Shown here: piece after piece, positions 42,318 to 52,903 of the stretch
Position numbering within the stretch: position 1 is the first letter of the stretch
How the letters are laid out: every line of letters starts with the position of its first letter
Source of the DNA: the human T2T-CHM13v2.0 reference genome, Homo sapiens
DNA length: 64,000 bases
Assembly (NCBI RefSeq): GCF_009914755.1
Contig: NC_060938.1
Reading direction: 5' to 3' (one strand)
Made by a program: the position numbers and the translations under genes
Notes under the pieces: generated by a model
The model's database searches: none
What the model saw: only the letters and a program-made list of their open reading frames with translations
What the model was told of the DNA's origin: nothing

Positions 42318-44169
42318 TGACCTACATACAGCTTCTGATTAGCTTGGGGTATTCTTAATAGATTAATTATAATTAATGTAGTTTGGCTAAAAGCAGACAT
42401 TTAGTGTTATAGTTAGTAGAATTTCCCTTAACTTTTGAAATATAAGAAATGAATTGTTGAACTTTGCCAGATTAACATTTGGAACCACAGTATTAGCTGA
42501 TTGATGGCAAATAGGCATTGGGTGACTTTCTGCAGCTAAGCAAGGCAATCATGATTTGCCTTTATATGCCAGCATATTTGCTCAGGTATTGCTGGATGGG
42601 TGAGAATGGCTGAAAAGAAAATTGTTAGTTCAAGTGAAGGAAGGAAGTGCCCAGAAAGAAAAAGAAGATAAAATATTAACATTATTTAGGTACTTAATGG
42701 CTGGGAATTAACTTATGAATCACAAAAGTTTTAGGAATTGTTGTGCAATGTCAGTATTTAAATTATGGTAAAATGAATAAGTATGCTTCATTTATGTTGT
42801 GTTTATAGTAAAATGCTCTTATTTTGTAATTTATTTTGTGTATAATAAAATAAGAGCATTTTAATCTATAATTATAATATTTGAAGTATGATTGCTACTC
42901 TTTCTTTAGTGCTTTATTTCCTCTTTGAATATTATCTAAAATACTGCATTATATTATGTTATTAATATCAAGGCCTAATGTATTCAGTTTCTAGATGAAC
43001 GATTTTCAAGTTGATTACAGACTTGATAGGGAATTATATTTATTTAATAGAAGTCTCTTTTGTACAATCTTAGCTAAAATTCTGAGAAACAAGAAAAAGC
43101 TATGTTATAAGGAACTAGTTCATCTGCTGTAAAAGTACACTGACATTTTAAAGTGCAAAAAACCAAAATACAGCTTAAGAAGTATGTCTGAAAAGTTAAT
43201 GTTAAATAAATTAGATTTTCCAGGTTATACTCTGTATACGCCCTGAAAAAGTTCTGCAATACAACGCATAGAAAACATACACATACTCACACAACAGACA
43301 CATAATACATAAAACACCCACAGTGCACACACGCAAAACACACAAATGGCAACCCCTATAAGCATACTAAGGTCTCTGAGAAGTCCTACAATAGAGACCT
43401 ACTAAGTTTTGTTTAATCATGTGCTTCTCCAGTTGATCTCAGAATCCTTCCCCCACCATCACAGGTAACCCTGATTCCTGATGACTTTGTGTTCCTTGGA
43501 ACACACTTTATGAATGACGGCTCTATGAGATTTTTCCCAAGGAAAACTATTACATAGGAGAAGTGTAAGATGCCCTCAACATTTATGGGTAAAAAACAGA
43601 TACCACCATTAAAATAACCCATATATCAGAAACAATACCTCCAAATTATGTGAAGAACATTGAGAATTCTTGCAGGGACTGAAAATCTTTATTTCCTTCT
43701 GGAATCCAGGTTTTTTCTTTTGGTGTTATGTACAGATAAAGCCAGGTCTATCTGCAGGTGATCACTGTGCTGCTAGTCTCTGTTCACATTGGTAGAAAGA
43801 TGTTGTTGGGCAGTAAAAGATGGTCATCTTCCTGCAAAATGAGTCAGTAACCCAAGGGTGAAAGCTGTGTCTCCCCCACAAGTTCTATCAGCATCTTTTG
43901 ACTTGACAGCACAATTGGGAGCCTTATCCTTTCTGCATTCCTGACACAGAGGACCAAAGGCCACTCCTCAACAACTTGTACCGCTCTCTCTGTTTATTCC
44001 ATAAAGAATGAAAAAGGAATATATTTCCACACTTTAAGACTATATGGTGGGGCATTTGGAGGGTGCTTACTCTGATAATTAAAAGGATTTTATCTTCATA
44101 AGGAAATCGACATTTGCTGTCAGGATGCCAGACCACAATTCTATAGAAGCTTTTCTCTTTTTTTTTGAT

Positions 44170-46790
<2,621 letters not shown>

Positions 46791-47238
46791 ATGATTATCT
46801 GTTTATTATCTAAAAGATGCAGTCCTAATTAAACTTTCTGTTTATATTAACCCTAATATTTTGATCTTCATTTTTTTAACTTTGTGAACAGTAGAGTTTT
46901 ATCCAAATGTGAAGTTTTATACCTTCACAGCTATCACTCCAATAAAGATATTTATTCTATTAAACAAAACATTTTAAAATGTTTTAACATATACAAATAT
47001 ATTTACAACATAATCTGCCAACTAAAGACTCCAACAAAGTTTACAGTACCTAAAACAGAATACAGATGCCTACAATAGTTTGCAGACTGATTTAGTTCAC
47101 AGTTACATCTATTGCTTTAAGAAATACCATTAATACAAATGCATGATTTACAGTATTCCCATTACAGCAAGAAAAAATAGATTTATAAAGTAAGGTGTCC
47201 TTTAGGTATTTATTATGCCAAGTATATCAAGTATTTAC

Positions 47239-47307
47239 TTTTTTTTCCTTTTTTTTGAGACAGGGTCTTGCTGTGTCCCTAGGCTGGAGTGCAGTGGTGC
47301 AGTCTCA
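47239..47307 (-). mobile_element. Severely 5'-truncated Alu (3' end only)
   Basis: Poly-T + gagacagggtcttgct...gcagtggtgcagtctc; flanked by attatgcca(a/g)gta at 47212 and 47308. Confidence 0.85.
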
Positions 47308-47579
47308 ATTATGCCAGGTACTTAAATGATTATTCTCATTATGACATAAGAATAATGGTCTTTTAGTGATGAAAGATAAATTGTATTGGCTCAAAGACCA
47401 CTGAAGAGCTTCCAGGAGGTTCCAAAGTAAAATCTGGCTATTCTTTATGTGAAATAAATAGAATAGCAGCAATCTCAGTGTATTCCTTAAACATAAACCA
47501 ATGTGATTCCATTTATGTTCATTGGGCCTTAAGTAAATGACTTGTTACAAATAAAAATCGAATTTTAGAAACTAGTTAA

Positions 47580-47947
<368 letters not shown>

Positions 47948-48058
47948 GTAAGTTTGGTATTTAATTGCTTGCATATGTCTGAGACATTTTACCATGAAGT
48001 ACATATTAAAAATTAACAATTATTTCTAACTTATACATAAGCCAAAATGCTCACTCTT

Positions 48059-49270
48059 TTTTTTGTAGGAAAGTTAGAGATTGTATATTATTGAAAAAGT
48101 TCATTTTCCAGGGCTTCAAAATGACCAGGGGAGTCAAGAGACACTATCATGGAATCAAACAATGAATTTTTGTATTAACCTATGTGTACATTGACTATTT
48201 CACATTGACTAAGCTGCCTTAGCTAGAAAAACAAGGTTCTGTCATTTCTTTCCTGATCTTTTCCTTTCCTTCCTTATTCACCAAGGAGGATGGCCCAGCA
48301 GCATCTCAGCCTACGCTTTTTAACTCACCTTCTCTATACCCTCTACCCAATGTCCACATCAACCAAGGATCCCTGAAGGATTCTTTAACAGCACCAATGT
48401 ACTGACCATTACTCTACATTTTTCTAGATGGCTCTGAGGTCCAAGTAAAAGATAATATTTGCAACCAACTCACTGGAGTTGACCATCAAAACTCTTTTCC
48501 AGGTAAGGTCTCCTTCATTATCTGAGGCAGAAATTTTTTATTGCTTTCTTTCTATTCCAATTGAATTAAGATATGACAATCTTCCCATGTACATCAAAGA
48601 TGACTTACAGAATTTCTTGGTGGGCTATAAGGTGGGAGTCCATCACCAACTAAGATTTCAAGATGGCATCCATAGATGAGCACATCGGTTACAAACTGTA
48701 TGGAAGAGAGCTTTTTCCTACCATAAACATTTTTTTCTTCTCAAAAAAGAGTTTGCAATTTGCAACCAAATGGACTGGAAAATCTGGCACAAAAATCCTG
48801 GGCCTTTTCCACAAGTGTCCTGTCTGCTTTATTTGGGGCCATTACTTTGACCACTATTTCCCAATGGGTTTTGTAATGTCATAAGTTAACAAAAGACCTG
48901 TGCAAACAGGATACAGCATGGTCTGATGCTCATAGACTTTTCTGTAATTACAGGCACACTCAGGCATCGCAGAAAATAATATGTATTGTGGAATCCCTCA
49001 CTTGATGAATAATCTAGATGATCAGAAATGTGGCACTATTTTGGCTTTCAGGTGGAAAAGCACCCTGAATCCAGCTTCCTGCTATGAATGAATACTGAGC
49101 TTGGGTTGGTGGAAATTGATTTTCGAGATAAGTAAGTATGGCCATATTCTAAGGTTCCTGGAATCAACTGTGTTCCCTTTAGGTGGTGTGGGATTTTGTG
49201 CATGGGACTGGGTATGCCTATGTGTGAATCCAAGTGGTGTGATTCTGAGTGTTTGTGCATGTGTTCTTGG
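48059..49270 (-). mobile_element. L1-mediated retroposed unique sequence (orphan transduction or truncated processed pseudogene)
   Basis: Perfect 16-bp TSD CAAAATGCTCACTCTT at 48043-48058 and 49271-49286, a T-run at 48057-48064, and no recognisable Alu or L1 body. Confidence 0.8.
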
Positions 49271-49765
49271 CAAAATGCTCACTCTTACCATGGAAGCAAA
49301 ACTCACTTCTGAAAATAGCCTACTCATATAATATGTAAACACATGGAGCTTTGAGATAGACTAAGAACATGCTCCTATGTTCTATGGATCAAAATGCAAA
49401 GGTATCTGTACATATGTAAATGAAGACATTTTTGTTAATTTGGGATATATTGATATTACATAACTATGTGCATACCTATATAGACCATAAAACAAATTTT
49501 GACAATGTTTCTAATGACAACATACTTTCTAAGCCCCAAATACTGGACATAAATATGAAAATGAGTTTTTCTGTTTTTAAATACAGTTTTTAAGTGGAAA
49601 AGCAAAACCAACACTCTCCGTTATAACATGGACTGGCCTTTAAAAGGTTCAGAGTCAAAAACCTCTTGTTGTTCCCCAATGTGATAAAACACATAAGCTT
49701 TCTCTCTCTGGTGAGGAAGTCTGATCATCTCTAGTGTTTTGTCTTAAAAATTGCTTTCCAGGATA

Positions 49766-49915
49766 GGTCGGGCGCAGTGGCTCACACCTGTAATCCAGCA
49801 CTTCGGGAGGCTGAGGCAGGCAGATCACCTGAGGTCAGGAGTTCGAGACCAGCCTGGCCAACATGGTGAAACCCCGTCTCTACTAAAAATACCAAAATTA
49901 GCCGGGCATGGTGGT
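49766..49915 (+). mobile_element. AluS left arm only (3' half missing)
   Basis: Alu 5' half up to 'gccgggcatggtgg', then unrelated sequence; no tail and no second TSD. Confidence 0.9.
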
Positions 49916-49946
49916 ACCACGTTTCTCAGTCCCTAGAGCCTTTCTT

Positions 49947-50049
49947 TCTTTCTTTTTTGTTTTTTTCAAGGAAGCGTTTTGCTGTGCCACCCAGGCTTGA
50001 GTGCAGATTTGAGACCATGGCTTACAGCAGCCTCGACCTTTCCTGGCCA
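49947..50049 (-). mobile_element. Old AluJ/FRAM-like 3' fragment
   Basis: The minus strand reads 'aggtcgaggctgctgtaagccatg...ctgcactcaagcctgggtgg' + A-rich tail; TSD agagcctttctt. Confidence 0.8.
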
Positions 50050-50061
50050 AGAGCCTTTCTT

Positions 50062-50364
50062 TTTTTTTTTTTTTCTTTTTTTGAGACGGAGTCTCGCTCT
50101 GTTGCCCAGGCTGGAGAGCAGTGGCGCCATCTCGGCTCACTATAAGCTCCGCCTCCTGGATTCAAGCCATTCTCCTGCCTCTGCCTCCCGAGTAGCTGGG
50201 ACTACAGGCGCCCGCCACCATGCCCTGCTAATTTTTTGTATTTTTAGTAGAGATGGGGTTTCACTGTGTTAGCTGAGATGGTCTCGATCTCCTGACCTTG
50301 TGATCTGCCTGCCTCGGCCTCCCAAAATGCTGGGATTACAGGCGTGAGCGACTGCGCCCGGCCA
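50062..50364 (-). mobile_element. AluY, full length
   Basis: Reverse AluY; 15-bp TSD ccaagagcctttctt at 50047-50061 and 50365-50379. Confidence 0.95.
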
Positions 50365-50766
50365 CCAAGAGCCTTTCTTAGCACCAACTGTGTACATTGT
50401 GTACTGCCCTTTAGCCTTTGCGCTTTGCAGCCTAATCCAAACCAACTGCTGAACGAGACACGCGTCTCCGCAGTCTCCGAGTCTTCATGGCTTTGGTTGT
50501 TAATCACTCTCAGCAATAGCCAAATCCCTTCCTCCACGCTGGTCTGTTCTCCCTAACTGAAAATGCAAGTGAAGGTGGACGGTTTGCCGTTCTGAGGAGC
50601 CCCTTATCAGTAATAATGTAGCAACTTCAGAAAAGTTAGCTGAGCAGCCTAGAGAAATAAGCAAAGGCCAGAATGTAGAAAGCCTTGACTCCATGCTGCT
50701 TCATGAGAACAGGGGTTCTTAGACCTATCAGAGCAGCAGCACCTTTTGACAGCGAATGCTTTCCAT

Positions 50767-51005
50767 CTTATCAAAGGTGGTGTCACCTTTCTTCAAAGCA
50801 ATGTGGCTGAAACTCTCGACCAAGTTCTCCGCAGCTTCTTCATCTTGCGGATCTTCTCGCCCGGCTGCAGCTCAAAGAGGTGGCACCTCTGGGCAACGCA
50901 GGGCCCCGGCAACGTCCCCAAACTAGTGGAGAGCAGGCGCGCGCCAAGGCCTGCTCCTCCTCCACACGCCTTCGGCGGCTCAGGAGGTGGGGCGGCGGCG
51001 TCTTC
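50767..51005 (-). pseudogene. CDK14: Processed pseudogene fragment of CDK14 (PFTK1): GC-rich 5'UTR + codons 1-41
   Basis: 50888->50767 translates (one 1-nt deletion) as RCHLFELQPGEKIRKMKKLRRTWS/ESFSHIALKKGDTTFDK, against the CDK14 N-terminus as recalled, MCDLIEPQPAEKIGKMKKLRRTLSESFSRIALKKDDTTFDE (31/41 identical). The start ATG is mutated to AGG and there is no intron. Confidence 0.9.
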
Positions 51006-51176
51006 CTTGGTGCCAGGCCTACGTAAGTTTTCCTTAAAGCCTAACTGACAATTCCGCACAGGAAGCCTGTATTGCTGAAATTAGAACAAAAGGCCTATGT
51101 ACCTTAATGCATTCATATTTCATATTTTAAATAAAACCATGGTTTCCCACAGAGTGACTTCTACTCTAAGAAATGG

Positions 51177-51509
51177 GGCCAGGAGCGGTGGTTCACACTT
51201 GTAATCCCAGCACTTTGGGAGGCTGAGGCAGGTGGATCACTTGGGGTCAGGAGTTCAAGACGAGTCTGGCCAATAGGGTGAAACCCTGTCTCTATTAAAA
51301 ATACAAAAAAAAAAAAAAAGAAAAAAGAAAAAAAATAACCTGGCGAGGTGGCGGATGCCTGTAGTCCCAGCTACTCAGGGGGGTGAGGCACAAGGACCGC
51401 TTGAACCCGGGAGGCAGAGGTTGCAGAGTCGATATCGCGCCGTTGCACTCCAGCCTGGGCGACAGAGTCAGATTCTGTCTCTAAATAAATAAATAAATGT
51501 ATGTATGTA
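51177..51509 (+). mobile_element. Alu (AluS-type) with an expanded middle A-tract
   Basis: Full Alu with a (TAAA)n tail; TSD aagaaatg. Confidence 0.93.
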
Positions 51510-51848
51510 AAGAAATGTAATATCCTGGCAACTTCTAGATAAGCTTTTTATTAGTAAATTACCTATTTATTAAGGTACAGTGAAGGAAAGAACTTGCTAA
51601 AAATTATTTTGATTCGGTTCACTCAATATTTGAATACGTGCAAGACATTTTGCTATGCATTTTGCCTCTTGATCTATAAGCAAGAAGTAAATATATATTT
51701 TCATCCTTCCAGAATAATTTTCACCCGTATTTGATGGGTATTTGTAGACTGAACATGTGCCAGAGCCAATCTGTCCTTTCTTCTTAAACTCATAGGACTA
51801 ACCAGGCTGGCAAGTGGTAAATGACACCAAACTAGGCTAGATTCATAG

Positions 51849-52261
<413 letters not shown>

Positions 52262-52483
52262 CTCTTCTAACCTTTTCATAGTGGCATCTCGAGTTGAAAC
52301 ACCAGAGCCAACAGTTTGAAATACACATATGGTTTAGGAGGCTGTGTTGCTATAGGACATTTCTGCCCTATCAATGGTACAGAGACAGGAACTTCCTTAG
52401 CTCTTTTGCCTGAGGTCATTTGTAGAGACTCAAGTCTCAGTGATGGGATTCGGAGGGCTGCCTGTTAATTTTCGAGAGTGGGT

Positions 52484-52903
52484 TGTGATGGTTATGTTTA
52501 TGTGCCCACTTCGCTAGGCCATGATATTCAGTCAAGCTTTCTAGATGCTTGTGTGAGCTATATTTACGTGAGGTAAACATTTAAATCAGCAGACTCTGAC
52601 TAAAGCAGATTGCTCTCCAAAATGTGGTGACCCTCACCCAATCAATTGAAGGCCTTAAAAGAAAAAAGGCTGAGCTGTTTTGAGGCAGAGGGAGTTATAC
52701 CAGCAGGCTGCCTTCCAACTTGAGATGCAACATCTTGTCCCTGGGTCTTCAGCTTGCAGGCCTACCCTGCAGATTTTGGACTTGTTAACCTCCATAATCA
52801 TGTGAGCCAGCCAATTCTTCAAAATCAATCTGTCTCTCTCTCTCTACACACACACCCACCCACCCTTTCAGTTCTGTTTTTCTGGAGAACCCTGACTAAT
52901 TGA
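52484..52903 (+). mobile_element. MLT2 (C/D-like) solo LTR, ERVL
   Basis: TGTGATGGTTA...TCTGGAGAACCCTGACTAAT; perfect 5-bp TSD TGGGT at 52479-52483 and 52904-52908. Confidence 0.9.

What the first reader, a model, noticed from the sequence alone, without database searches (positions are those of the whole stretch)
50380..51005. CDK14 retrocopy preserves a non-canonical splice isoform
Similarity to CDK14 stops exactly after codon 41 (…TTFDE). From recalled isoform structure, this is the exon boundary where the alternative N-terminus (MHGYFG…TPQ) joins ICVTKM. Here the sequence continues in frame as MESIRCQKVLLL* instead, followed by several hundred bp of unique UTR-like DNA. The retroposed RNA was therefore spliced from the early CDK14 exons into an alternative/cryptic exon or another gene. 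It is a fossil of a kinase-less ~53-aa CDK14 isoform or a chimeric transcript.
Basis: partly seen in the sequence, partly recalled or inferred. Interest (0 to 1): 0.8.

Follow-up and report, generated by a model that had tools for sequence, protein, structure and literature searches.

The report
Dead retrocopy of alternative CDK14 transcript
This is an old, dead retrocopy of an unusual CDK14 messenger RNA that skipped from exon 2 into cryptic exons inside the gene's own intron and ran through another gene's pseudogene lying there; it is a neat but ordinary kind of genomic fossil.

Summary
On the minus strand, window 51017-50767 is CDK14 5'UTR, exon 1 and the 32-nt exon 2, joined exactly at the chr7 splice sites. 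Similarity to the canonical gene stops after codon 41.

The continuation is not local DNA. It matches chr7 91879317-91882403, 26.8 kb into the 122-kb CDK14 intron 2, in the same order and orientation. Two short chr7 stretches with GT...AG ends (88 and about 160 nt) are missing. The source RNA was therefore exon 1, exon 2, altA, altB, then a long terminal exon of about 2.2 kb.

Most of that terminal exon is itself a dead processed pseudogene of a TVP23/DUF846 gene sitting in the CDK14 intron. The chr14 element is a retrocopy of a transcript that already carried a retrocopy.

The element spans window 51017-44150, not 50380-51005. It ends in AATAAA plus an A-run that a later LTR element split, and it is riddled with Alus. 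Identity to chr7 is 84% (K2P 0.18).

Caveats:
- The altA acceptor is TAT, not AG, in today's chr7.
- The two alt junctions are off by 1-2 nt.
- The target-site duplication is not significant.
- No transcript data could be consulted.

This is a new member of a known kind, of modest interest.

The parts
50799..51017 (-). CDK14 5'UTR and exon 1, equivalent to chr7 91844665-91844988. The start codon is lost (AGG at 50888-50886). One base is deleted between 50818 and 50817.
   Evidence: (178 of 217 aligned bases identical).
50767..50798 (-). CDK14 exon 2 (32 nt, ends with codon 41), joined exactly to exon 1. The 7.5-kb intron 1 is absent.
   Evidence: 30 of 32 identical. chr7 flanks are AG|...|GTAGGT.
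50603..50766 (-). Alternative exon altA, equivalent to chr7 91879317-91879491. It carries the in-frame stop TGA at 50730-50728.
   Evidence: (137 of 164 identical). The chr7 donor AAG|GTAAGT is canonical. The acceptor is TAT, not AG.
50509..50602 (-). Alternative exon altB, equivalent to chr7 91879580-91879691. It has an 18-nt indel, and one extra G at its 5' junction.
   Evidence: (82 of 91 identical).
50364..50508 (-). Start of the long terminal exon altC, equivalent to chr7 91879850-91880003. Two extra bases (AG) sit at the junction.
50047..50363 (-). Later Alu insertion with an A-tail and an identical 14-nt target-site duplication (AGAAAGGCTCTTGG).
   Evidence: Read directly. Alu-type multi-hits.
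49947..50046 (-). Older 5'-truncated Alu 3' fragment inserted at the same target site. A third copy of the target sequence lies at about 49946-49931.
49916..49946 (-). Continuation of altC, equivalent to chr7 about 91879985-91880012.
   Evidence: 19 of 25 identical.
49770..49917 (+). 3'-truncated Alu (left half only). It marks a deletion of about 785 nt of retrocopy (chr7 91880013-91880796), which includes the 5' 620 nt of the TVP23 pseudogene.
   Evidence: The deletion is an inference from the Alu's missing right half.
49271..49769 (-). altC, TVP23-pseudogene-derived part, equivalent to chr7 91880797-91881616. chr7 has since gained an Alu at 91881090-91881394.
48059..49270 (.). Later 1.2-kb insertion of a moderately repeated family. 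It is not part of the retrocopy.
   Evidence: 46 candidates, 40 scored, 67-75% identity.
47969..48058 (-). altC, equivalent to chr7 91881601-91881690.
   Evidence: 82 of 90 identical.
47605..47968 (-). Later Alu insertion.
47308..47604 (-). altC, equivalent to chr7 91881697-91881997.
   Evidence: 250 of 297 identical.
47232..47307 (-). Alu fragment inserted later.
46791..47231 (-). End of altC. The TVP23 pseudogene 3' end is at about 46879. Then come its A-rich tail and about 70 nt of chr7 intron flank, AATAAA at 46807-46802, and the cleavage region.
   Evidence: (361 of 422 identical).
44170..46790 (+). Later LTR retrotransposon (MaLR/THE1-like by recall) that splits the retrocopy's 3' end. 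Its flanks are ATCAT/ATCAA.
   Evidence: LTR-LTR K2P 0.147, 263 of 303 identical.
44150..44169 (-). Poly(A) tail of the retrocopy (A9 GAG A4 G). Before the LTR element inserted, it lay 10-11 nt after AATAAA.

Best explanation
Window 51017-44150 (minus strand) is an L1-mediated processed pseudogene of a non-canonical CDK14 transcript.

The source RNA began at the normal CDK14 promoter and spliced exon 1 to exon 2. From the exon 2 donor, after codon 41, it spliced not to exon 3 (92 kb further on) but to three cryptic exons 26.8 kb into intron 2:
- altA, about 175 nt;
- altB, about 110 nt;
- altC, a terminal exon of about 2.2 kb.

The terminal exon starts 330 nt upstream of a sense-oriented, dead TVP23-family (DUF846) processed pseudogene that was already in the intron. 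It reads through that pseudogene and ends about 70-85 nt beyond it, at an AATAAA signal. This RNA was reverse-transcribed into chr14.

Both copies then decayed neutrally (K2P 0.18). The chr14 copy later acquired Alus, a 1.2-kb repeat, a 785-nt deletion and an LTR element in its tail.

Shown directly: the exon joins, the intronic origin, colinearity, the TVP23 identity, and the poly(A) end.

Inferred:
- The two short gaps are introns.
- The altA acceptor was AG when the RNA was made.
- The RNA was a low-value, NMD-prone isoform rather than a source of a 53-residue protein.
- The age is roughly 40-75 Myr, using recalled neutral rates.
For: 1. The exon 1/exon 2 join is exact at the chr7 GT and AG sites. 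Intron 1 and the first 26.8 kb of intron 2 are absent.
2. Window 50380-51010 finds only chr7 in the whole genome: 3 candidates, all scored, giving 4 chr7 pieces plus itself.
3. An 11-block colinear chain covers 1,994 aligned bases with 1,678 identical (84.2%).
4. The chr7-only stretches 91879492-91879579 and about 91879692-91879851 begin AAG|GTAAGT and AAG|GTATGA and end in AG behind pyrimidine tracts.
5. chr7 91880181-91882338 is multi-copy (10 candidates, 10 scored). The copies include two chr17 loci and a chr16 copy with 5'UTR, ATG, poly(A) and a perfect 13-nt target-site duplication. That chr16 copy hits Pfam DUF846 at E 4e-42. The chr7 copy has 11 in-frame stops in 150 codons.
6. The window shares with chr7 both the unique sequence upstream of that pseudogene and about 70 nt beyond its tail. 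It therefore copies the chr7 locus, not TVP23 mRNA.
7. Removing the LTR element restores AATAAA, then 10-11 nt, then an A-run.
8. LTR-LTR K2P is 0.147, below 0.18, which fits the nesting order.
9. The parent is the chr7 PFTAIRE kinase gene. Exon 3 and the PFTAIRE exon lie downstream on the same strand.
Against: 1. At the position homologous to the exon 2/altA junction, T2T chr7 reads TAT|ATTAC. There is no AG, and the first 14 nt of altA are only 7 of 14 identical.
2. Both alt junctions deviate from clean GT-AG excision. The window carries 1 extra G and 2 extra bases (AG), so an indel must be assumed at each.
3. The candidate target-site duplication (GGAAAACTTACGTAG against GAAAAGCTTCTATAG) is no better than chance: 1,346 of 5,000 shuffles reach its score.
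4. Within the TVP23 part, chr7 and chr14 group only weakly. FastTree support is 0.646 on a branch of 0.005. There are 11 shared derived sites of 607, against 8-9 shared with the chr3 copy. The sister relationship rests on the shared flanks.
5. In chr7 the poly(A)-signal region is interrupted by a full-length antisense L1 and cannot be aligned with confidence.
6. No annotation or RNA data for chr7 were available, so nothing shows that the isoform exists today.
Confidence: 0.85

Rival explanations
1. Chimeric retrocopy made by L1 reverse-transcriptase template switching. Reverse transcription would begin on an unrelated intron-derived or TVP23-pseudogene RNA and jump to a CDK14 mRNA, with no exon 2 to altA splice ever existing.
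For: Template-switch chimeras are an accepted route to chimeric retrocopies (passages of PMC5470649). There is no AG at the altA start in chr7, and similarity is poor over its first 14 nt.
Against: The 5' partner ends exactly at the last base of exon 2. Both partners come from one gene, on the same strand and in genomic order, 26.8 kb apart. The 3' partner itself lacks two GT-AG stretches.
Confidence: 0.04
2. Same retrocopy, but exon 2 spliced to one long terminal exon. On this reading the 88- and 160-nt gaps are ordinary deletions in the chr14 copy after insertion, not introns.
For: The junctions are 1 and 2 nt off a clean excision. The copy carries other indels, for example an 18-nt one inside altB and a 785-nt deletion.
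Against: Both gaps start at GT with strong donor context; AAG|GTAAGT matches the consensus at all 9 positions (consensus recalled). Both gaps end at AG behind pyrimidine tracts. The extra bases lie in a G-run and a GAGAG repeat, where slippage is common (inference).
Confidence: 0.08
3. The source RNA was a genuine, regulated CDK14 isoform that produces a 53-residue N-terminal peptide or tunes CDK14 dosage by premature termination, and it may still do so.
For: The frame and the TGA-TAG stop are the same in chr7 and chr14. The first AG downstream in today's chr7 (CAAAAG|G, 24 nt further) keeps the frame. The RNA was present in the germline often enough to be retroposed soon after the TVP23 insertion.
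Against: The stop lies about 125 nt before two more junctions, which predicts NMD (inference). The altA acceptor AG is absent, and an L1 sits in the poly(A) region of today's chr7. The alt exons diverge at the neutral level, 82-90%. No papers were found.
Confidence: 0.07

Closest known systems
Processed pseudogenes as fossils of alternative splice variants (Shemesh, Novik, Edelheit and Sorek 2006, PNAS; seen only as an entry in the reference list of PMC5470649; paper not held; content recalled)
   Same: A retrocopy records an exon combination of its parent that differs from the canonical mRNA.
   Different: Here the alternative part is not a known exon choice. It is three cryptic intronic exons, one of which contains another gene's retrocopy.
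Type I 'exon acquisition', new 3' exon from an intronic sense retrocopy (Baertsch et al. 2008, PMC2584115; passages and Table 1 text read). 18 of 726 expressed retrocopies. Example: RPL32 retrocopy in RPS29, where most of the retrocopy became 3'UTR.
   Same: A sense-oriented retrocopy in a host intron ends up inside an alternative 3' terminal exon of the host gene, mostly as UTR.
   Different: The evidence here is a second-generation retrocopy, not ESTs. The splice acceptor (330 nt upstream) and the poly(A) signal (about 70-85 nt downstream) lie outside the TVP23 pseudogene. CDK14, PFTK1 and FAM18B have 0 occurrences in that paper's main text; its supplements were not opened.
PIPSL, a retrocopy of a PIP5K1A-PSMD4 read-through transcript (PMC2773790; only the search listing and the start of the abstract were seen)
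   Same: A retrocopy of a composite transcript that carries sequence from two genes.
   Different: PIPSL joins two neighbouring live genes and is expressed. This one joins a gene to a dead pseudogene inside its own intron, and is itself dead (lost ATG, frameshift, many insertions).

Membership tests
Processed pseudogene (L1-mediated retrocopy) | Parental introns precisely absent | tested here: met
   The exon 1/exon 2 join is exact at the chr7 GT and AG sites. 7.5 kb and 26.8 kb are missing.
Processed pseudogene (L1-mediated retrocopy) | Poly(A) tail shortly after a polyadenylation signal at the 3' end | tested here: met
   AATAAA at 46807-46802, then 10-11 nt, then A9GAGA4G at 44166-44150 once the LTR element (46790-44170) is set aside.
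Processed pseudogene (L1-mediated retrocopy) | Flanking target-site duplication | tested here: inconclusive
   The candidate 15-mer pair scores no better than 1,346 of 5,000 shuffles.
Processed pseudogene (L1-mediated retrocopy) | Unlinked to the parent gene, and disabled | tested here: met
   chr14 against chr7. ATG changed to AGG and a 1-nt deletion.
Alternative CDK14 transcript isoform | Alternative exons lie within the gene, in sense orientation and in order, after the exon they join | tested here: met
   Exon 2 ends at 91852522. The alt exons lie at 91879317-91882403. Exon 3 is at 91974849. All are on the + strand.
Alternative CDK14 transcript isoform | Canonical splice sites at every alternative junction in the present human gene | tested here: not met
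   4 of 5 alt sites are canonical (altA donor, altB acceptor and donor, altC acceptor). The altA acceptor reads TAT.
Alternative CDK14 transcript isoform | Direct transcript or annotation evidence | not testable with these tools
   No chr7 annotation or RNA-seq data were at hand. Searches found no paper on it.
TVP23/DUF846 processed pseudogene (the chr7 insert) | Sequence homology to the DUF846 family mRNA across CDS and 3'UTR, without introns | tested here: met
   chr7 91880168-91882329 is colinear with the chr16, chr15 and chr2 copies from just before the ATG to the mRNA end. Pfam PF05832 hits the chr16 copy at E 4.2e-42. The names TVP23B and TVP23C are recalled. FAM18B2 is placed at about 15.44 Mb of chr17 (hg19) in a table of PMC4306395.
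TVP23/DUF846 processed pseudogene (the chr7 insert) | Own poly(A) remnant and target-site duplication | tested here: inconclusive
   An A-rich run follows the mRNA end. ATGAAGAT recurs on both flanks by eye, but the flank alignment is not above shuffles (783 of 5,000).
Host-gene exon acquisition from a retrocopy (Baertsch Type I) | The retrocopy itself supplies the splice site or the poly(A) site | tested here: not met
   The acceptor is 330 nt upstream of the pseudogene, and the end lies about 70-85 nt downstream of it.

The most novel reading that the evidence does not exclude
The landing of a TVP23B retrocopy in CDK14 intron 2 created, almost at once, a prematurely terminated, germline-expressed CDK14 isoform (exons 1-2 plus cryptic exons). 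That isoform was abundant enough to be retroposed itself within a small fraction of the elements' age. The two retropositions cannot be resolved on the tree. The isoform may have acted, or may still act in some primates, as an intronic-polyadenylation brake on CDK14. Humans would have since lost it through loss of the acceptor AG and an L1 insertion at the poly(A) site.
Probability: 0.1. Interest if true: 0.45.

Novelty: new member of a known kind. Interest (0 to 1): 0.3.

Why it matters
The finding documents an ancestral CDK14 transcript structure that current splice sites would not predict. It is also a clean example of a second-generation retrocopy, that is, a retrocopy of an RNA that already contained a retrocopy.

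It adds an unannotated pseudogene, about 6.9 kb in span, to chr14 (nothing is listed there in the supplied RefSeq table). It also explains the origin of sequence that now underlies exons of LINC00640 and LOC105370495.

It does not bear on CDK14 kinase function, and there is no sign that the element itself is functional.

Tried and rejected
- **14-nt micro-exon.** I looked for a source of ATGGAAAGCATTCG between exon 2 and altA. There were 2 hits with up to 3 mismatches in 26.8 kb, about the chance number, and neither was flanked by AG and GT. Rejected.
- **A fourth intron.** The 785-nt gap (chr7 91880013-91880796) has GAG|GTTTCG and TTGTAG| ends. I rejected the intron reading because the window holds a 3'-truncated Alu exactly there, and its match runs 2 nt past the would-be donor. 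A deletion explains both.
- **Independent TVP23 retrocopy on chr14.** Rejected on the shared chr7-specific flanks, although substitutions alone cannot separate the two readings.
- **L1 target-site duplication in chr7.** I searched for it in order to rebuild the parental poly(A) region. The first 12-mer hit was inside the L1. The L1 ends at about 91888572, and the flank TTTAATAAC may correspond to the window's ATAATAAAC, but the alignment is not convincing.
- **Target-site duplication tests.** Tests for both retrocopies were not significant.
- **Literature.**
  - CDK14 plus retrocopy: 0 papers.
  - CDK14/PFTK1 plus processed pseudogene: 105 papers held at least 2 of the 3 terms. All 8 listed had 0 occurrences of 'processed pseudogene'; the other 97 were not examined.
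  - TVP23BP/TVP23CP/FAM18BP/FAM18B2: 22 papers, 10 listed, none on this locus by title.
- **Not opened.** Supplements of Baertsch 2008, and retrocopy databases that might list the element.

Full report
**1. Observation**

Read on the minus strand, window 50927-50799 matches chr7 91844859-91844988 of the same assembly at 87% identity (E 4e-35). Weaker, indel-rich 5'UTR similarity extends to window 51017, equivalent to chr7 91844665, which is 233 nt upstream of the chr7 ATG.

In chr7 this exon ends ...CATTG|GTGAGT. The next 32 nt of the window (50798-50767) are a separate small exon at chr7 91852491-91852522. It is bounded by TATAG| and |GTAGGT, and 30 of 32 bases are identical. Its last codon is codon 41. 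The window reads TTFDK where chr7 reads TTFDE.

The window then continues in frame as MESIRCQKVLLL followed by two stops. The copy is dead: ATG has become AGG, and there is a 1-nt deletion.

**2. The parent gene**

I recognise the 41 codons as CDK14 from memory, so I checked this with tools. A degenerate pattern for the PFTAIRE motif has 3 exact hits in the genome (the reversed-pattern control gave 1). One hit is at chr7 92038708 on the + strand, in an exon that reads VNGKLVALKVIRLQEEEGTPFTAIRE. A pattern for the recalled start of exon 3 also gave 3 hits (control 9). One is at chr7 91974852 on the + strand, behind a CAG acceptor, and reads ICVTKMSTRNCQGMDSVIK....

Exons 1 and 2 therefore sit upstream of a PFTAIRE kinase gene on chr7. 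Intron 2 spans 91852523-91974848, which is 122 kb.

**3. Where the continuation comes from**

A whole-genome search with window 50380-51010 produced 3 candidates, all scored. They gave the window itself plus four chr7 pieces, and nothing else.

BLAST of window 44000-52500 (minus strand) against 100 kb of chr7 gives one colinear, same-strand chain once the Alu-type multi-hits are set aside:

| Window | chr7 |
|---|---|
| 50752-50602 | 91879331-491 |
| 50602-50514 | 91879580-686 |
| 50508-50357 | 91879850-91880003 |
| 49765-49488 | 91880801-1087 |
| 49500-49271 | 91881390-616 |
| 48058-47950 | 91881601-709 |
| 47604-47308 | 91881697-997 |
| 47225-46812 | 91881984-2397 |

Over 11 aligned blocks, 1,678 of 1,994 bases are identical (84.2%). 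There are 185 transitions, 131 transversions and 112 gap columns, giving K2P 0.180. The continuation is therefore CDK14 intron 2 sequence starting 26.8 kb after exon 2. It does not start with the intron's GT.

**4. Further splicing**

Two chr7 stretches are absent from the window. They are 91879492-91879579 (88 nt) and about 91879692-91879851 (about 160 nt). They begin AAG|GTAAGT and AAG|GTATGA, and they end ...TTAGCCAG| and ...CTGTTTCTTAG|. I read them as introns. The source RNA then had exons altA, altB and a long terminal altC.

Three caveats apply:
- The window has one extra G at the first junction and two extra bases (AG) at the second. These lie in a G-run and a GAGAG repeat.
- The first 14 nt of altA align without gaps at only 7 of 14 positions.
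- They are preceded in chr7 by a pyrimidine tract ending TAT, not AG.

A 14-nt micro-exon was sought and not found. The first AG after that tract in today's chr7 is 24 nt further on and keeps the same frame and the same TGA-TAG stop.

**5. The twist**

A search with chr7 91881400-91882400 returned 13 matches from 10 candidates, all scored. They fall on chr17 (two loci), chr16, chr15, chr3, chr2, chrX and the window.

Three copies begin at the same chr7 position: 91880184 for chr16, 91880181 for chr15 and 91880188 for chr2. The chr16 copy has a 5'UTR, an ATG, an A-tail and a perfect 13-nt target-site duplication. Its first 150 codons hit Pfam DUF846 at E 4.2e-42. By recall this is TVP23B/TVP23C (FAM18B1/FAM18B2) on 17p. 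A table in PMC4306395 lists FAM18B2 at the hg19 chr17 15.44-Mb end of the CMT1A duplication.

So chr7 about 91880168-91882329 is a sense-oriented TVP23 processed pseudogene inside CDK14 intron 2. It has 11 stops in 150 codons.

The window shares two things with chr7. One is the unique intronic sequence upstream of this pseudogene (altA, altB and the first 160 nt of altC). The other is the A-rich tail plus about 70 nt of intron beyond it. The chr14 element is therefore a copy of the chr7 locus made through RNA. It is not an independent TVP23 retrocopy.

Substitutions alone barely resolve this:
- K2P is 0.166 for chr7-chr14, 0.161 for chr7-chr17 and 0.169 for chr14-chr17.
- FastTree pairs chr7 with chr14 at support 0.646 on a branch of 0.005.
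- There are 11 shared derived sites of 607, against 41 and 43 private ones. Either copy shares 8-9 with the chr3 copy.

I infer that the second retroposition followed the first quickly.

**6. The ends**

Homology stops at window about 46800. There the window reads AATAAA (46807-46802), followed by CAGATAATCA. A 2.6-kb element with two LTRs follows at 46790-44170. Its ends are TG...CA, its flanks are ATCAT/ATCAA, and it is MaLR/THE1-like by recall. After it comes A9GAGA4G. With that element set aside, the structure is a standard signal, spacer and poly(A) end.

LTR-LTR K2P is 0.147 (263 of 303 identical), which is below 0.18 and consistent with the nesting order.

A candidate 15-nt target-site duplication is not significant: 1,346 of 5,000 shuffles reach its score.

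In chr7 a full-length antisense L1 (about 91882412-91888572) now sits at the corresponding place.

**7. Later damage to the chr14 copy**

- Two Alu insertions used the same target sequence. The younger has an identical 14-nt duplication.
- A 3'-truncated Alu marks a deletion of about 785 nt, which removed the 5' part of the TVP23 pseudogene.
- A 1.2-kb member of a moderately repeated family was inserted.
- Two further Alu pieces were inserted.

**8. Mechanism and meaning**

The most likely account, at about 0.85, runs as follows. A CDK14 pre-mRNA in the germline used the exon 2 donor with cryptic intronic exons. It terminated just past the resident TVP23 pseudogene, and L1 machinery copied it to chr14.

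The 53-codon frame ends about 125 nt before two further junctions. By the usual 50-nt rule (established knowledge, inference here) the RNA would be an NMD target. I do not take it as evidence for a peptide.

With K2P about 0.09 per lineage, and recalled neutral rates of 1.2-2.2e-9 per site per year, the event is roughly 40-75 Myr old.

Today's human gene lacks the acceptor AG and has an L1 in the poly(A) region, so the isoform may be extinct. That needs RNA data and outgroups, which I could not consult.

**9. Comparison with what is known**

The closest concepts are these:
- Processed pseudogenes that preserve splice variants (Shemesh et al. 2006). I saw this only as a reference entry, and the paper is not held.
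- Host genes gaining a 3' exon from an intronic sense retrocopy. Baertsch et al. 2008 report 18 of 726 such cases, with RPL32 in RPS29 as the nearest example (passages read).
- Retrocopies of composite transcripts such as PIPSL (listing only).

Searches for CDK14 with retrocopy (0 papers) and with processed pseudogene (the 8 papers listed had no occurrence of the term) found nothing on this element. The supplied RefSeq table has no pseudogene here.

**Verdict.** The finding is real, correctly interpreted in outline, larger and more layered than described, and a new member of a known kind. Interest 0.3.

Noticed in passing
window 50379-50365, 50060-50047, 49946-49931: The same target sequence, AGAAAGGCTCT(T/A)GG, occurs three times. 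A 5'-truncated old Alu piece and later a full Alu inserted at the same site in succession. chr7 keeps the single uninterrupted version.
   Followed up: partly
window 48059-49270: A 1.2-kb insertion inside the retrocopy belongs to a moderately repeated family (46 candidates, 40 scored, 67-75% identity; clusters on chr5 176-181 Mb, chr16 33-34 Mb and chr22). LINC00640 exons 48428-48502 and 48954-49131 lie within it on the opposite strand.
   Followed up: partly
window 47232-47317: LINC00640 exon 47264-47317 (+) and the first exon of LOC105370495, 47239-47275 (-), overlap each other in and beside an Alu fragment embedded in the retrocopy. These lncRNA exons are built from debris inside a dead pseudogene.
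   Followed up: no
window 44170-46790: A complete LTR element of 2.6 kb (MaLR/THE1-like by recall) is inserted between the retrocopy's cleavage site and its A-tail. LTR-LTR K2P is 0.147.
   Followed up: partly
L019 (chr16 14236995-14240896), positions about 553-2420: A young, full-length TVP23-family processed pseudogene has a long A-tail and a perfect 13-nt target-site duplication (AAGAGCTAGATTC). It is K2P 0.035 from the chr17 gene copy. Its frame stays open for about 150 codons before a frameshift.
   Followed up: partly
L010/L016, chr7 91882412-91888572: A full-length antisense L1 is inserted in CDK14 intron 2 right where the ancestral alternative transcript was polyadenylated.
   Followed up: partly
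L017 and L018 (chr17 18.75 Mb + and 15.44 Mb -): The two chr17 copies differ by only K2P 0.011 and lie in inverted orientation. This fits the recent TVP23B/TVP23C segmental duplication (names recalled).
   Followed up: no
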